Source of the DNA: Escherichia coli
Lineage (GTDB): Bacteria > Pseudomonadota > Gammaproteobacteria > Enterobacterales > Enterobacteriaceae
Reading direction: 5' to 3' (one strand)
DNA length: 64,000 bases
Assembly (NCBI RefSeq): GCF_003334355.1
Contig: NZ_QOWP01000008.1
In this document: positions 10,845-63,054 of the stretch, one piece after another
How the letters are laid out: the number at the start of each line of letters is the position of its first letter
How positions within the stretch are numbered: the first letter of the stretch is position 1
Made by a program: the position numbers and the translations under genes
Notes under the pieces: generated by a model
Database searches by the model: none
What the model saw: only the letters and a program-made list of their open reading frames with translations
Told to the model about the DNA's origin: nothing

Positions 10845-12506
10845 ATGAGTGATATAGCATTAACGGTCAGTATTTTGGCTTTGGTGGCAGTCGTCGGTTT
10901 GTTTATCGGCAACGTCAAATTTCGCGGCATAGGATTAGGTATTGGCGGCGTGCTGTTTGGTGGGATCATCGTCGGCCATTTTGTTTCTCAGGCGGGGATG
11001 ACATTAAGTAGCGATATGCTGCATGTTATTCAGGAATTTGGCCTGATTCTGTTCGTTTATACTATCGGGATTCAGGTAGGGCCGGGCTTCTTTGCCTCAT
11101 TGCGCGTCTCCGGATTACGCCTCAACCTGTTTGCTGTTCTGATCGTCATCATCGGTGGTCTGGTTACCGCCATCCTGCATAAACTGTTTGATATTCCACT
11201 GCCGGTAGTGCTGGGGATTTTCTCCGGTGCGGTAACCAATACGCCAGCGCTGGGGGCAGGGCAGCAGATCTTGCGCGACTTGGGTACACCAATGGAAATG
11301 GTCGATCAGATGGGGATGAGTTACGCGATGGCGTATCCATTCGGCATTTGCGGGATATTGTTCACCATGTGGATGTTGCGGGTTATTTTCCGCGTCAATG
11401 TCGAGACAGAAGCCCAGCAGCACGAGTCTTCACGCACCAATGGCGGCGCGCTGATCAAGACTATCAATATTCGCGTTGAGAACCCTAACCTGCATGATTT
11501 AGCCATTAAAGATGTACCGATTCTCAACGGCGACAAAATTATCTGCTCGCGTCTGAAACGAGAAGAAACCCTAAAAGTACCTTCGCCAGATACCATTATC
11601 CAACTGGGCGATTTGCTGCATCTGGTGGGGCAGCCAGCGGATTTACATAATGCGCAACTGGTGATTGGTCAGGAGGTCGATACCTCGCTGTCCACGAAAG
11701 GCACTGATTTGCGCGTCGAGCGTGTGGTGGTCACCAATGAAAACGTGCTTGGTAAGCGTATTCGCGACCTGCATTTTAAAGAACGCTATGACGTTGTTAT
11801 CTCGCGCCTGAACCGTGCCGGGGTCGAACTGGTCGCCAGTGGCGATATCAGCCTGCAGTTCGGCGATATCCTCAATCTGGTGGGGCGTCCGTCCGCAATT
11901 GATGCCGTTGCCAATGTGCTGGGGAATGCGCAGCAAAAACTGCAACAGGTTCAGATGCTGCCAGTGTTTATTGGCATCGGGCTAGGCGTATTGTTAGGTT
12001 CTATTCCCGTCTTTGTGCCAGGATTCCCGGCCGCGTTGAAACTGGGGCTGGCGGGCGGACCGCTGATTATGGCGTTGATCCTCGGGCGTATCGGCAGTAT
12101 CGGCAAGCTGTACTGGTTTATGCCGCCAAGCGCCAACCTCGCGCTGCGGGAGCTGGGGATCGTGCTGTTCCTCTCGGTCGTTGGTCTGAAATCTGGTGGG
12201 GATTTTGTGAATACCCTGGTCAATGGCGAAGGGCTAAGCTGGATTGGTTATGGTGCCCTGATCACCGCCGTTCCGCTGATTACTGTTGGCATTCTGGCGC
12301 GGATGTTAGCCAAAATGAATTACCTGACCATGTGCGGGATGCTGGCAGGTTCCATGACCGATCCTCCGGCGCTGGCGTTTGCTAATAATCTTCATCCAAC
12401 CAGCGGTGCGGCGGCGCTCTCTTACGCCACTGTCTATCCGTTGGTAATGTTCCTGCGCATTATCACCCCCCAATTACTGGCGGTGCTCTTCTGGAGTATC
12501 GGTTAA
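10845..12506 (+). CDS. yidE: Putative AAE-family transporter YidE (two RCK_C/TrkA-C domains)
   Basis: ORF 10821..12506; start at [12 protein letters not shown] gives 553 aa. Confidence 0.85.
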
Positions 12507-13140
12507 CTCTTTTCCGGGTGGAGTCGCCGTAAATGGTACTCCACCTGGTATTCGCTGGCATTTCTGAACATCACTGAATAATTCAAAAACTCCCCGCTCT
12601 CGCTATATGACAACGAGGTTATCCGCAGCAGTGGCGTGTGTTCCGCTACCTTCATTTGCCGCGCCAGCAGTCTATCGGCGAGCACTGGCGTCAGGCTTTC
12701 ATAATTACCGCCAATCAAAATCCCGCACTCTTGTTCAATATATTCAAACTTCGACCCTTCCAGATGTTGCAGCGAAAGATTACGGAACAGTTTTACCGGC
12801 ATATAGCTGTCTTCCAGCATCAGCGGTTTCCCTTCCACAAAACGAACGCGACGGGAGAAGTAGATCTGCTCGTTGATTTGAATCCGTAACTGGCTGGCAA
12901 TGGCCGGAGGCGCAGGCATGATTTCAAAAATCAGCACCTGGCTGGTGACCGTTTTTCCCTGCCGTGGCGGCGGACCACCAATCCCCACGCTACCAGCAGG
13001 TCAATGGCTTTACGGATGGTCATCCGCGATACCGCAAATTCTTCCGCCAACTTTTTTTCACCGGGAAGAAGGCTATTTAGCGTGAAATCTGCGGAATTAA
13101 GTCGAATTCTTAACCGCTCCGCAATGCTTTTGTAGATCAT
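12503..13140 (-). pseudogene. yidP: GntR/HutC-family regulator YidP, apparently frameshifted (HTH part 12931..13140 in one frame, UTRA part 12503..12988 in another)
   Basis: Two overlapping minus-strand ORFs in different frames: N-terminal HTH (MIYKSIAERL...VVRRHG) and C-terminal UTRA effector domain; the frame switch lies near a ggg-aaaaa-cgg run at ~12950-12960. Confidence 0.6.
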
Positions 13141-13435
13141 CTCTAGATCTCTTTTTTGCCTGCAAGCCCGGGTAATGCGCCCACAAGTTCTGCTTAATCG
13201 ATTGAAAAAACATCTTTTTTTTAAACATGTGTTCGATGCTGTGTACCAGTGCTCACAGATGTCTACTTTTTCGCGAAAACGTAGATCTCTACCGCCCAAC
13301 GAAAAGCATGAAAGCGATCACGAATCCCATTGGGTCGTCATGTTCTGCCGATCGCATCTTCCTATCCTCGCTCCAGGCCTGCCGCATAACCAATCAGGCT
13401 TCCTACTTACAGAATTGAGAAAAGAGGATGTGGAA

Positions 13436-17264
<3,829 letters not shown>

Positions 17265-17430
17265 TTTAATATCCCTCCGGCGAATTATGCTCACAACCTG
17301 AACTTAACAGAAAACAATCCGTTCAGGGATACGACGTTTGTATTTTAAGAATCTGACTGCCTGACCCGACGCATTTTACCTCTCCCTATATTCATGCGTC
17401 CGGGACATAAACATAAATAAGGGCTATGAG

Positions 17431-40591: not shown

Positions 40592-41227
40592 TCTTCTGAA
40601 TCACCGGGCGAAAAAATATAACTGAGTTACAAATAAGTACCAGTCGAATGAGTATTGTATTAAGAATTTTTGAGTATCGCTGATACAACCAGAAAGCAAT
40701 GCTAGCGCAATATTATAGGGCCAGCAATTGAGATTATTAGCAAAAGCATGTTAAGAATTAATTACTGAATTTATATATTAATTATAGTAAGGCAATGAGC
40801 TATTTTTGATAGTAAAAATAAAACAAGTTGATTTGATATATTAAATGAACAAATTAATCTTGATGGCAGTCTGATTATTGGTGAAGTTTATAGTCAGTTT
40901 TTTTCGCCAGCGGTTAAAGAAATAGAATAGTCGTATAAAAAAGGGTGTTCTGGGGCGAGTAAAACAACATCTTCACCTTAATGGCGATACAGTTGGCTGA
41001 GAGTCAGCAGGGGGGCAAATCACCTGCAAATAAACACGGCGCATACTGGCGTGAATATCGCGGATGCGTTCGAGGACAGAAGAACCGACAGGCGGATTCT
41101 TCAGCCGCTCATCGTCCATCACAAAACCTTAGACCAGGTATTCCTGAAGCCGATTGAATATTGAGCAGTAGAAAATATCTGGATTGACAGTATTACAAGG
41201 GGTTGGAGAACGTCAGGAGAGGCATTT

Positions 41228-41322
41228 TGGCGGAAGATCACAGGAGTCGAACCTGCCCGGGACCGCTGGCGGCCCCAACTGGATTTGAAGTCCAGCCGCC
41301 TCACCGGAGACGACGATCTTCC
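41228..41322 (-). tRNA. selC: tRNA-Sec (selenocysteine tRNA)
   Basis: 95-nt sequence whose reverse complement reads GGAAGATCGTCGTCTCCGGTGAGGCGGCTGGACTTCAAATCCAGTTGGGGCCGCCAGCGGTCCCGGGCAGGTTCGACTCCTGTGATCTTCCGCCA, with anticodon TCA and encoded CCA end. Confidence 0.95.
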
Positions 41323-58961: not shown

Positions 58962-59786
58962 CTATTTCTTCTCTGTAATTTTTACACTGTTTTCCAACTG
59001 CTTGATGCTGACCTGCGGGGTCGGCAACTCCTCAGGCATGGTTCCGCCAAGTTCCTGAATGGTTTGCCTCACCTTGCGACCCACGTCAAAGTGTGTGGTG
59101 TTTGCTTGCTGTTTTGAATTCACGCCATCCCGCTTGAGTTTTTCTTCTGTTTGGGTAGCTCGAAAGAGATTAGCCGCCAGTTCTGTTGAACCCATATGAT
59201 CCAGGATCTTCTGACTCTTTTTCAGCCCCTTCCGCTGATGGATGGCTTTCTGATCTAATCCACCATACAGCCCCCGGTAACCATGATTCTGAAATATGGC
59301 GAAATCGATAGCTGTCGCTACCCCAGCTTGCTGCGCTGCCTCAACTAATTGTTTGTTATGTTCTTTCAATTCATTTCTCAGAAAAAGACGCTTTTCGTCT
59401 TCACGAAGTTGCCTGAAAGCTTCATCGTCAGCCAGCTCCTGCCGTCGGGTCTGGATAGCAAAATAAGTTTGCCCTGCCGCAATAACCGGTTTCGCAGGGT
59501 CGCCGTTTTGTACTACCAGGTAACAGGCATAGCGGGAGAGATGAACATCTTCAAGTTCTCGTTGAGCCCCTGAACCTAATACAACCATTTTGGTGGTTTC
59601 AACGAAATGGTCAGATGCAGCTTGATTGCTGGCTTCGCACGCTTGAGTCGCGCGGGCAAGTACCTTTTGAAAATTGCGCCAGTCCCGATAATCCAGTAAC
59701 GGTGCCAATTCTCTCGCTGACCAAAATTCTTGCCCTTCAGTGCCATAATGCCGTATTTCTTCAAAAGGTTGATGATGTTCGTTCAT
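58962..59786 (-). CDS. dinD: DNA-damage-inducible protein DinD
   Basis: ORF 58962..59798; start at MNEHHQPFEE gives 274 aa; LexA box 46 bp upstream. Confidence 0.85.
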   Translation of the reverse strand: MNEHHQPFEEIRHYGTEGQEFWSARELAPLLDYRDWRNFQKVLARATQACEASNQAASDHFVETTKMVVLGSGAQRELEDVHLSRYACYLVVQNGDPAKPVIAAGQTYFAIQTRRQELADDEAFRQLREDEKRLFLRNELKEHNKQLVEAAQQAGVATAIDFAIFQNHGYRGLYGGLDQKAIHQRKGLKKSQKILDHMGSTELAANLFRATQTEEKLKRDGVNSKQQANTTHFDVGRKVRQTIQELGGTMPEELPTPQVSIKQLENSVKITEKK

Positions 59787-60007: not shown

Positions 60008-60871
60008 TTATTCAATGTTCTGAATCTGTTCGCGCATCTGCTCAATCAACACTTTCAGCTCAATCGCGGAGTTTGTCACTTCGGCATTGATAGACTTCGA
60101 AGCAAGAGTGTTCGACTCGCGGTTGAACTCCTGCATCATAAAGTCCAGACGACGACCAACGGCTTCTTTTTTCTTCAGAATGTTGTACGTCTCATTAACA
60201 TGCGCTTCGAGGCGGTCCAGTTCTTCGGCAACGTCAATTCGTTGTGCCAGCAGAACCAACTCCTGCTCCAGACGGTTGTTTTCCAACTGCACCTGAGCAT
60301 CTTCCAGCTTCGCGACCAAGCGTTCACGCTGCCATTGCAGGATTTCCGGCATATGGGAGCGGACTTTGACCACTTCGGCGGTGACGCCTTCCAGACGCTG
60401 CTCAATCAACGCTTTCAGCGCCTGACCTTCGGTTTCGCGAGCGATGATAAAGTCATCCAGGGTGCCATCCAACGCCGCGAGAATTTCAGCGGCAATCGCG
60501 TCGAGATCCTGCTCCTGGGCTGCCATCACGCCCGGCCAGCGTAGAATATCAACCGGGTTGATTTCCCCTTCGTCACTCTGCATTTTTACCCAGTTCGCGG
60601 CAGTTACCAGCTGTTTAGCCAGTTTTTCATTGAGGATCAGCTCACCTTGTGCGCTAACATCTGGCTCATAGCGCAGGGTACATTCCACTTTACCGCGCGT
60701 CAGGCGAGAACGAATACGCTCACGAACGACAGGTTCAAGGCTACGGAACTGCTCCGGCAGACGAAAGTAAGTTTCCAGATAACGCTGGTTTACCGAGCGC
60801 ATTTCCCAGGTTGCGCTCCCCCATTCACCCTTGATTTCACGCCGGGCGTAGGCGGTCATACTGCGGATCAT
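60008..60871 (-). CDS. yicC: YicC-family stress-induced protein
   Basis: 287-aa ORF; divergent from rph. Confidence 0.9.
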   Translation of the reverse strand: MIRSMTAYARREIKGEWGSATWEMRSVNQRYLETYFRLPEQFRSLEPVVRERIRSRLTRGKVECTLRYEPDVSAQGELILNEKLAKQLVTAANWVKMQSDEGEINPVDILRWPGVMAAQEQDLDAIAAEILAALDGTLDDFIIARETEGQALKALIEQRLEGVTAEVVKVRSHMPEILQWQRERLVAKLEDAQVQLENNRLEQELVLLAQRIDVAEELDRLEAHVNETYNILKKKEAVGRRLDFMMQEFNRESNTLASKSINAEVTNSAIELKVLIEQMREQIQNIE

Positions 60872-60997
60872 AGACGTTCCTGTTTATAAAAGGAGAGGTG
60901 GAAGGATTATAGCCATCGATGCCTTGTCAGGATAGGAATAACCGCCGGAAGTCCGTATAATGCGCAGCCACATTTGTTTCAAGCCGGAGATTTCAAT

Positions 60998-61714
60998 ATG
61001 CGTCCAGCAGGCCGTAGCAATAATCAGGTGCGTCCCGTTACCCTGACTCGTAACTATACAAAACATGCAGAAGGCTCGGTGCTGGTCGAATTTGGCGATA
61101 CCAAAGTGTTGTGTACCGCCTCTATTGAAGAAGGCGTGCCGCGCTTCCTGAAAGGTCAGGGCCAGGGCTGGATCACCGCAGAGTACGGCATGCTGCCACG
61201 TTCTACCCACACCCGTAACGCTCGTGAAGCGGCGAAAGGTAAGCAGGGTGGACGCACAATGGAAATCCAGCGTCTGATCGCCCGTGCTCTTCGCGCGGCA
61301 GTAGATTTGAAAGCGCTGGGTGAGTTCACCATTACGCTGGACTGCGACGTGCTTCAGGCTGATGGTGGCACGCGTACCGCGTCGATTACGGGTGCCTGCG
61401 TGGCGCTGGCAGATGCGCTACAGAAGCTGGTGGAAAACGGCAAGCTGAAAACCAACCCGATGAAAGGGATGGTAGCCGCAGTTTCTGTCGGAATTGTGAA
61501 CGGCGAAGCGGTTTGCGATCTGGAATACGTTGAAGACTCAGCCGCAGAGACCGACATGAACGTAGTGATGACCGAAGACGGGCGCATCATTGAAGTGCAG
61601 GGGACGGCAGAAGGCGAGCCGTTCACCCATGAAGAGTTACTCACCTTGTTGGCGCTGGCCCGAGGGGGAATCGAATCCATTGTAGCGACGCAGAAGGCGG
61701 CGCTGGCAAACTGA
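60998..61714 (+). CDS. rph: RNase PH, apparently wild-type full-length (238 aa)
   Basis: ORF 60974..61714; start at [14 protein letters not shown]; C-terminus ...[18 protein letters not shown] with an intact G5 run. Confidence 0.9.
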
Positions 61715-61720
61715 TTTTTA

Positions 61721-61748
61721 AGGCGACTGATGAGTCGCCTTTTTTTTG
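61721..61748 (+). terminator. pyrE attenuator (UTP-sensitive intrinsic terminator)
   Basis: aggcgact-gatg-agtcgcct hairpin followed by T8, 7 nt after the rph stop and about 30 nt before the pyrE ATG. Confidence 0.85.
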
Positions 61749-61779
61749 TCTGTAGAAAAGTAAGATGAGGAGCGAAGGC

Positions 61780-62421
61780 ATGAAACCATATCAGCGCCAG
61801 TTTATTGAATTTGCGCTTAGCAAGCAGGTGTTAAAGTTTGGCGAGTTTACGCTGAAATCCGGGCGTAAAAGCCCCTATTTCTTCAACGCCGGGCTGTTTA
61901 ATACCGGGCGCGATCTGGCACTGTTAGGCCGTTTTTACGCTGAAGCATTGGTGGATTCCGGCATTGAGTTCGATCTGCTGTTTGGCCCTGCTTACAAAGG
62001 GATCCCGATTGCTACCACAACCGCCGTGGCGCTGGCGGAGCATCATGACCTGGACCTGCCGTACTGCTTTAACCGCAAAGAGGCAAAAGACCACGGTGAA
62101 GGCGGCAATCTGGTCGGTAGCGCGTTACAAGGACGCGTAATGCTGGTGGATGATGTGATCACCGCCGGAACGGCGATTCGCGAGTCGATGGAAATTATTC
62201 AGGCCAATGGCGCGACGCTTGCTGGCGTATTGATTTCGCTTGATCGTCAGGAACGCGGGCGCGGCGAGATTTCGGCGATTCAGGAAGTTGAGCGTGATTA
62301 CAACTGCAAAGTGATCTCTATCATCACCCTGAAAGATCTGATTGCCTACCTGGAAGAGAAGCCAGAAATGGCGGAACATCTGGCGGCGGTTAAAGCCTAT
62401 CGCGAAGAGTTTGGCGTTTAA
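61780..62421 (+). CDS. pyrE: Orotate phosphoribosyltransferase
   Basis: ORF 61765..62421; start at [11 protein letters not shown] gives 213 aa. Confidence 0.95.
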
Positions 62422-62429
62422 AGAAACTC

Positions 62430-62451
62430 GCCGGATGAAAAGTCATCCGGC
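62430..62451. terminator. Hairpin terminator between convergent pyrE and slmA
   Basis: gccggatga-aaag-tcatccggc inverted repeat. Confidence 0.7.
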
Positions 62452-62457
62452 GTCATA

Positions 62458-63054
62458 TTACTGCAACTGCGCGGCAATTAGCGGCCAGCGGGCGTCAAAA
62501 TCATCCGTCGGGCGGTATTTAAATTCGCTGCGGACAAAGCGTGACAGCATACCTTCACAGAAGGCCAGGATCTGGCTTGCCAGCAGGGTTTCATCGGTGG
62601 TGTAACCTTCACCCTCACGCATTCTCTTTTCACGCAATACCTGGCGCAGCTGCGCTTCAATACGCTCGAACAGCTGGTTGATGCGCCCTTGCAGGCGATC
62701 CTGTTCAAACATTAGCGCATGACCAGTGAGGATGCGGGTCAGGCCAGGATTACGCTCACCAAAACCGAGAAGCAGCAACACAATCAGACGCAGGCGCGCT
62801 GTGGTGTCTTTCTCATCTTTCAGAATCAGGTTGATGCGAGTAATCAGGCTATCTTCGATAAACTCAATCAGGCTATCGAACATGCGGGTCTTACTGGGGA
62901 AGTGGCGATACAGTGCCGCTTCGGAAACGCCGACAGAGGCGGCCAGTTTTGCCGTCGTGATACGTTGGCTTCCATCGCTGGATTCCAGCATCAGCGCCAG
63001 AGACTGAAGTATTTCCTCGCGACGGTTCCTTTTCGCAGTTTGTTTTTCTGCCAT
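62458..63054 (-). CDS. slmA: Nucleoid occlusion factor SlmA (TetR family)
   Basis: ORF 62458..63096; start at [20 protein letters not shown] gives 198 aa. Confidence 0.9.

What the first reader, a model, noticed from the sequence alone, without database searches (positions are those of the whole stretch)
60998..61780. rph appears wild-type (238 codons), unlike the rph-1 frameshift of K-12 MG1655/W3110
The ORF from MRPAGR runs 238 codons to ...AALAN, and the stop lies 7 nt before the pyrE attenuator hairpin, the geometry needed for translation-coupled attenuation of pyrE. Together with the three disruptions above, this indicates the window is from an E. coli-like genome that is not standard MG1655.
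Basis: partly seen in the sequence, partly recalled or inferred. Interest (0 to 1): 0.3.

Follow-up and report, generated by a model that had tools for sequence, protein, structure and literature searches.

The report
Intact wild-type rph–pyrE operon
This is the normal, unbroken RNase PH gene followed by the well-known pyrE attenuator, as found in about 95% of complete E. coli genomes; only the K-12 laboratory lineage carries the 1-bp deletion, so the finding is correct but ordinary.

Summary
An ATG..TGA ORF at 60998..61714 (+) encodes a 238-aa RNase PH. It scores 380.8 bits on TIGR01966 (cut-off 141.5), has Pfam RNase_PH plus RNase_PH_C, and aligns end to end with the solved P. aeruginosa enzyme. 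Aligned to MG1655 (NC_000913.3), the window has GGGGG at 61664-61668 where MG1655 has GGGG. The MG1655 frame therefore ends early (…ARGESNPL*, 228 aa). The TGA (61712-61714) lies 7 nt before the G+C stem of the pyrE attenuator, or 5 nt if two A-U pairs are counted. The stem is GGCGACU/AGUCGCC at 61722-61739, followed by T8. pyrE starts at 61780. From the base after the G-run to the end of the aligned segment (61800), which covers the attenuator and the pyrE start, the sequence is identical to K-12. Of 5,425 complete E. coli genomes with the locus, 5,156 carry the exact 5-G, 85-nt segment. Only 168 carry the 4-G version, and those listed are nearly all K-12 laboratory derivatives. The window is not K-12: it has 6 substitutions in 901 bp here and is 98.3-99.3% identical over about 63 kb. 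It is closest to natural isolates such as strain PSS-12. The UTP-sensitive, translation-coupled attenuation mechanism and the rph-1 defect were described in 1984-1993. Already known; low interest.

The parts
60956..60961 (+). Perfect TATAAT hexamer 36 nt upstream of the rph ATG. It is a candidate -10 element of an rph-pyrE promoter (inferred only).
   Evidence: Read directly. The sequence is identical in MG1655. The consensus scan did not call it because no good -35 lies at 16-18 nt.
60986..60989 (+). GGAG Shine-Dalgarno-like motif 8 nt before the rph ATG.
   Evidence: Sequence.
60998..61714 (+). rph, full-length ribonuclease PH: 238 aa, ATG to TGA.
   Evidence: ORF and translation. TIGR01966 at 380.8 bits, covering profile positions 1-235 of 236. 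Pfam PF01138 plus PF03725. Residues 2-237 align to residues 3-238 of PDB 1r6l. The near-identical genome PSS-12 annotates it as rph, WP_001247093.1.
61664..61668 (+). G5 run. This is the site where K-12 MG1655/W3110 (rph-1) has only four G.
   Evidence: Alignment to NC_000913.3. The simulated 1-bp deletion reproduces the 228-aa …ARGESNPL* product.
61712..61714 (+). rph stop codon TGA, 7 nt upstream of the G+C stem of the attenuator.
61720..61747 (+). pyrE attenuator, an intrinsic terminator. The stem-loop is AAGGCGACU-GAUG-AGUCGCCUU, with its G+C core at 61722-61739. It runs into a T8 tract at 61740-61747.
   Evidence: Terminator-like site. MFE hairpin of -14.7 kcal/mol. 100% identical to the K-12 sequence.
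61767..61772 (+). GAGGAG Shine-Dalgarno motif of pyrE, 7 nt before its ATG.
   Evidence: Sequence.
61780..62421 (+). pyrE, orotate phosphoribosyltransferase, 213 aa.
   Evidence: TIGR00336 at 240.6 bits against a cut-off of 106.8. The protein is identical to MG1655 PyrE. Annotated as pyrE in PSS-12.

Best explanation
The region is the intact, wild-type rph-pyrE operon of a natural (non-K-12) E. coli.

rph encodes full-length RNase PH, a phosphorolytic 3' exoribonuclease that trims tRNA 3' ends. Its last codons also act as the leader for pyrE. The rph stop codon sits 7 nt before a G+C-rich hairpin plus U-tract, which is an intrinsic terminator placed between rph and pyrE.

The established model (Bonekamp et al. 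1984; Jensen 1993) works as follows. When UTP is low, RNA polymerase moves slowly, and the ribosome translating the end of rph stays close behind it. Reaching the stop codon, the ribosome covers the 5' arm of the hairpin, so the terminator cannot form and pyrE is transcribed. When UTP is high, polymerase outruns the ribosome, the hairpin forms, and transcription stops before pyrE.

In K-12 rph-1, the loss of one G moves the stop about 29 nt upstream. The ribosome then never reaches the hairpin, termination is high, and pyrE is under-expressed. This window has the functional geometry.

Shown here: the sequence, the allele, the geometry, the family membership and the population frequency. Inferred from the literature and not tested here: the UTP dependence and the ribosome occlusion.
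For: - **ORF and allele:** the ORF is 238 aa with a G5 run, against the G4, 228-aa product in MG1655.
- **Family:** full-length match to the RNase PH equivalog, profile positions 1-235 of 236, whereas the MG1655 product matches only 1-221. The Pfam two-domain architecture is present. The protein aligns end to end with the solved RNase PH 1r6l.
- **Attenuator:** the hairpin plus T8 is called terminator-like and folds at -14.7 kcal/mol. It is identical to the experimentally studied K-12 attenuator.
- **Occlusion model:** if an assumed ribosome at the wild-type stop covers 12-15 nt, the hairpin drops to -5.4 or 0 kcal/mol. At the rph-1 stop position it stays fully foldable.
- **Operon structure:** no promoter-like site lies in the 65-nt spacer, and pyrE is intact.
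- **Frequency:** the exact 85-nt segment from the G-run to the end of the hairpin is in 5,156 of 5,425 genomes. The 4-G version is in 168, and those listed are nearly all K-12 laboratory strains.
- **Literature:** the mechanism and the rph-1 phenotype are summarised in PMC11148124, PMC2784333 and PMC5933015.
Against: Nothing in the sequence argues against this explanation. The caveats are as follows.
- The shuffle z-score of the 81-nt fold is only -1.88, and terminator-like sites are not rare in the region (4 found against 2.2 expected). The regulatory role therefore rests on identity to the characterised K-12 element, not on statistics.
- Rfam has no family for this attenuator.
- The primary papers (Jensen 1993, Bonekamp 1984) could not be read here.
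- The ribosome footprint used is an assumption.
Confidence: 0.97

Rival explanations
1. The window is a K-12 derivative in which rph-1 has reverted or been repaired (an 'MG1655 rph+' laboratory strain), or the extra G is a homopolymer sequencing error on a K-12 background.
For: Repaired rph+ K-12 strains exist, for example the true reversion built in PMC5933015. JM83 is a K-12 strain with intact rph. The sequence from after the G-run to the end of the aligned segment (61800) is identical to K-12.
Against: There are six substitutions against MG1655 within 901 bp, including two amino-acid differences: A138 against V and T216 against I. Identity to MG1655 over about 63 kb is only 98.3-99.3%, with indels in yidP and glvG. 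The 901-bp segment is 100% identical to 12 natural isolates.
Confidence: 0.01
2. The hairpin is simply the rph terminator and pyrE is transcribed from its own promoter. In that case the stop-to-hairpin distance has no regulatory meaning.
For: The structure is a generic intrinsic terminator. Its fold is not statistically exceptional.
Against: No promoter-like site lies in the 32 nt between the T-tract and the pyrE ATG, or anywhere in the spacer. Published genetics show that mutations moving the rph stop towards or past the hairpin restore pyrE expression and are repeatedly selected in MG1655. These include the 82-bp deletion and rph-1 reversion (PMC2784333, PMC3203608, PMC5933015). The 85-nt segment is invariant in 95% of genomes.
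Confidence: 0.02

Closest known systems
E. coli rph+ (wild-type RNase PH) / rph-pyrE operon with the UTP-sensitive intercistronic attenuator (Poulsen/Bonekamp/Jensen 1984-1993)
   Same: Same gene order, the same 238-aa reading frame, and the same stop codon, hairpin, T-tract, pyrE Shine-Dalgarno and pyrE start. The sequence is identical to K-12 from the base after the G-run through the pyrE start. The PyrE protein is identical.
   Different: The only differences are neutral-looking polymorphisms in rph relative to K-12: six substitutions, two of them non-synonymous (A138/V, T216/I). These are shared with many natural isolates.
rph-1 allele of E. coli K-12 MG1655/W3110
   Same: Same locus and the same surrounding sequence.
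   Different: rph-1 has GGGG instead of GGGGG. Its product is 228 aa ending …ARGESNPL. Its stop lies 36 nt before the G+C stem rather than 7 nt. The rph-1 allele is in 168 of 5,425 genomes, against 5,156 for the allele seen here.
pyrBI leader attenuator of E. coli (UTP-sensitive, translation-coupled attenuation)
   Same: Same logic, from my own knowledge and not tested here: UTP-dependent polymerase speed and a trailing ribosome that blocks a terminator hairpin.
   Different: In pyrBI the translated ORF is a short dedicated leader peptide. Here the 'leader' is the 3' end of a full enzyme gene (rph).

Membership tests
Ribonuclease PH (NCBIfam TIGR01966; Pfam PF01138 + PF03725) | Score above the curated equivalog cut-off | tested here: met
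   380.8 bits against a cut-off of 141.5.
Ribonuclease PH (NCBIfam TIGR01966; Pfam PF01138 + PF03725) | Two-domain architecture, RNase_PH followed by RNase_PH_C | tested here: met
   PF01138 at residues 10-140 (E = 1.7e-30) and PF03725 at residues 157-222 (E = 1.4e-15).
Ribonuclease PH (NCBIfam TIGR01966; Pfam PF01138 + PF03725) | Complete C-terminus, the part lost in rph-1 | tested here: met
   Profile positions 1-235 of 236 are covered, against 1-221 for the MG1655 product. The protein aligns to residues 3-238 of the 239-aa chain 1r6l.
Ribonuclease PH (NCBIfam TIGR01966; Pfam PF01138 + PF03725) | Phosphorolytic 3' exoribonuclease activity | not testable with these tools
   Requires an enzyme assay.
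rph+ (wild-type) allele as opposed to rph-1 | Five G at the slippage site and a 238-codon frame ending …AALAN | tested here: met
   GGGGG at 61664-61668, against GGGG in NC_000913.3.
rph-pyrE translation-coupled attenuator | rph stop codon within a ribosome footprint of the terminator stem | tested here: met
   The TGA ends at 61714 and the G+C stem starts at 61722, a gap of 7 nt. Modelled occlusion removes the hairpin (with an assumed footprint).
rph-pyrE translation-coupled attenuator | G+C-rich hairpin followed by a U-tract, between rph and pyrE on the same strand | tested here: met
   The stem has 9 pairs (5 of them G-C), a 4-nt loop and a T8 tract, and folds at -14.7 kcal/mol. The pyrE ATG is 32 nt after the tract.
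rph-pyrE translation-coupled attenuator | Sequence identity to the experimentally characterised K-12 element | tested here: met
   Positions 61669-61800 are identical to MG1655.
rph-pyrE translation-coupled attenuator | UTP-dependent readthrough into pyrE | not testable with these tools
   Known for K-12 from the literature cited in PMC2784333 and PMC11148124. Not measured for this strain.

The most novel reading that the evidence does not exclude
The G5 run may be a recurrent slippage hotspot, so that rph-1-like alleles also arise outside K-12. One non-K-12 human stool isolate, 2015C-3101, carries GGGG on non-K-12 flanks and is annotated 'frameshifted'. If real, the locus would act as a natural mutational switch on pyrimidine supply. 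This concerns other genomes. In this window the allele is simply wild type.
Probability: 0.1. Interest if true: 0.25.

Novelty: already known. Interest (0 to 1): 0.05.

Why it matters
This has practical value only. It marks the window as coming from a non-K-12 E. coli with normal pyrE regulation. The source strain should therefore not show the partial pyrimidine starvation of MG1655/W3110 in minimal medium. It also shows that the first-stage reader can recognise a 1-bp allelic difference. No new biology follows: the rph-1 defect and the attenuation mechanism have been known since 1984-1993, and the wild-type allele is the norm in the species.

Tried and rejected
- **Rfam:** a scan of 60500-62600 at E <= 1 gave only a sub-threshold chance hit of the hairpin to RyhB (24.5 bits against a gathering score of 55). 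Rfam has no family for the pyrE attenuator.
- **Primary papers:** I tried to read Jensen 1993 (PMC204738), Bonekamp 1984 (PMC557777) and the Turnbough & Switzer review (PMC2415746). None is held. The mechanism is therefore cited through PMC11148124, PMC2784333, PMC5933015 and PMC3203608.
- **Source strain:** I first assumed the window was strain PSS-12. A base-by-base comparison rejected this: there are 17 mismatches, and PSS-12 has an IS1 in yidL that the window lacks. No genome shown in the searches is demonstrably identical over the whole window.
- **Repaired K-12:** considered and rejected on the substitutions.
- I gave the MG1655 protein with its start codon trimmed instead of its stop (227 aa). 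This does not affect the C-terminal coverage result.

Full report
**1. The observation**

The + strand carries an ATG at 60998 and a TGA at 61712-61714, with an open frame of 238 codons between them (MRPAGR…AALAN). A longer TTG-initiated version listed by the ORF finder (60974) is only the mechanical first-start call. A GGAG motif lies 8 nt before the ATG at 60998. That ATG is also the start annotated in MG1655 and in the near-identical genome PSS-12.

**2.

I fetched the MG1655 locus (NC_000913.3 3814000-3818000) and aligned it to the window.
- MG1655 lacks exactly one G in that run.
- The MG1655 frame then reads …ALARGESNPL* and ends after 228 aa. The record annotates it as 'truncated RNase PH'.
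- Deleting one G from the window in silico reproduces that product, with the premature TAG at window 61683-61685.
- The window also differs from MG1655 at six substitutions within 901 bp. Two change amino acids: residue 138 is A against V, and residue 216 is T against I.
- From the base after the G-run to the end of the aligned segment (61800), which includes the pyrE start, the two sequences are identical.

**3. What the gene is**

The 238-aa product scores 380.8 bits on the NCBIfam RNase PH equivalog TIGR01966 (cut-off 141.5) and covers profile positions 1-235 of 236. The MG1655 product covers only positions 1-221. Pfam finds RNase_PH at residues 10-140 and RNase_PH_C at residues 157-222. 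The protein aligns over residues 2-237 with residues 3-238 of the solved P. aeruginosa RNase PH, 1r6l (E = 3.7e-104). The downstream ORF at 61780-62421 is pyrE. It scores 240.6 bits on TIGR00336, and its protein is identical to MG1655 PyrE.

**4. The intercistronic region**

The 65 nt between rph and pyrE contain AAGGCGACU-GAUG-AGUCGCCUU followed by a T8 tract (61720-47).
- The pattern scan calls it terminator-like, with 9 pairs, 5 of them G-C.
- It is the dominant element of the MFE fold. Folded alone, it gives -14.7 kcal/mol.
The gap is five nucleotides if the A-U pairs are counted.
- No promoter-like site lies in the spacer.
- The statistics alone are unremarkable: the fold z-score is -1.88, and 4 terminator-like sites were found in the region against 2.2 expected. 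The regulatory assignment rests on identity with the characterised K-12 attenuator.
- Rfam has no model for this element.

**5. Mechanism**

The published model is summarised in PMC2784333, PMC11148124 and PMC5933015, which cite Bonekamp et al. 1984 and Jensen 1993.
- Transcription past the attenuator needs close coupling of translation to transcription.
- At low UTP, the ribosome finishing rph follows the polymerase closely and prevents the terminator hairpin from forming.
- In rph-1 the ribosome stops too early, termination is high, and PyrE is limiting.

A simple occlusion model is consistent with this. It assumes that a ribosome at the stop codon covers 12-15 nt counted from the first base of that codon. 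At the wild-type stop, the remaining RNA folds at -5.4 or 0 kcal/mol instead of -14.7. At the rph-1 stop position, 36 nt before the stem, the hairpin remains fully foldable. This step is inference, and the footprint is an assumption.

**6. How usual the allele is**

The 901-bp region is present once in 5,425 of 5,426 complete E. coli genomes. An 85-nt probe running from 9 nt upstream of the G-run to the end of the hairpin gives these counts:

| Probe version | Genomes matching exactly |
|---|---|
| 5-G probe | 5,156 |
| 4-G probe | 168 |
| Remainder with other differences | about 101 |

The listed 4-G genomes are almost all K-12 laboratory derivatives, including MG1655, W3110, BW25113, J53, HMS174 and evolved clones. 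The 4-G genomes align to the 5-G probe through the gap at 98.8% (H81), so the two counts are complementary. The wild-type allele is the species norm, and rph-1 is a laboratory-lineage peculiarity.

**7. Source of the window**

The window is collinear with MG1655 3877118-3813550 on the reverse strand, at 98.3-99.3% identity. It has three local differences:
- a deletion of roughly 70-80 bp in yidP;
- about 490 bp present in the window where MG1655 glvG is deleted;
- a divergent block of about 214 bp between dinD and yicC.

The nearest complete genome is strain PSS-12 (human faeces, Ecuador). It shows 17 mismatches over 47 kb, but it has an IS1 in yidL that the window lacks. The first 25 kb match several other natural isolates equally well. 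An intact rph alone would not prove it, however, because some K-12 lineages such as JM83 are rph+.

**8. Verdict**

The observation and the interpretation are both correct. The feature is the textbook wild-type rph-pyrE operon, which is already known, and the interest is very low.

Noticed in passing
window 61607-61616 and 61690-61699: Two copies of the 10-bp direct repeat GCAGAAGGCG flank the G-run. These repeats are reported to mediate the recurrent 82-bp rph-pyrE deletion selected in evolved MG1655 (PMC2784333, PMC3203608). The K-12-like strain NBRC 3301 (NZ_CP048439.1, L007) carries exactly such a deletion, and its rph is annotated as partial.
   Followed up: partly
L006 (NZ_CP027221.1, strain 2015C-3101) 844-1559: A 5.3-Mb human stool isolate has the 4-G rph allele on non-K-12 flanks (ACC…GCG, as in the window), and its rph is annotated 'frameshifted'. 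This is either an independent -1 slippage in nature or a homopolymer assembly error.
   Followed up: partly
window ~12503-13140 (-): The GntR-family regulator yidP is disrupted. Relative to MG1655 the window lacks roughly 70-80 bp around 12959-12965, and PSS-12 annotates the gene as 'frameshifted'.
   Followed up: partly
window ~13136-16374 (+): This is the glv locus. The PTS IIBC gene is split by an internal stop, giving ORFs at 13136-13945 and 13946-15052. The downstream 6-phospho-alpha-glucosidase gene (15007-16374) is intact. In MG1655, glvG is instead a pseudogene lacking about 490 bp. The two lineages have therefore decayed differently.
   Followed up: partly
window 16371-17303 (-): The AraC-family gene yidL is intact here. 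The otherwise near-identical strain PSS-12 has an IS1 inserted in it, 777 bp of extra sequence in all.
   Followed up: yes
window 59540-59754: A block of about 214 bp in the dinD-yicC intergenic region does not align with MG1655 by megablast, although the length is conserved. It is a locally divergent intergenic segment, possibly a repetitive extragenic element.
   Followed up: no
window ~40958-41292 (-): tRNA-Sec (selC) has only a short rhuM/yicT remnant beside it, and no pathogenicity island is integrated at this classic insertion hotspot. The coordinates are taken from the PSS-12 annotation.
   Followed up: no
window 60816: One of the few mismatches to PSS-12 lies in yicC, just upstream of rph on the opposite strand. 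PSS-12's YicC has its own protein accession (WP_338388884.1), so the difference may be specific to PSS-12.
   Followed up: no
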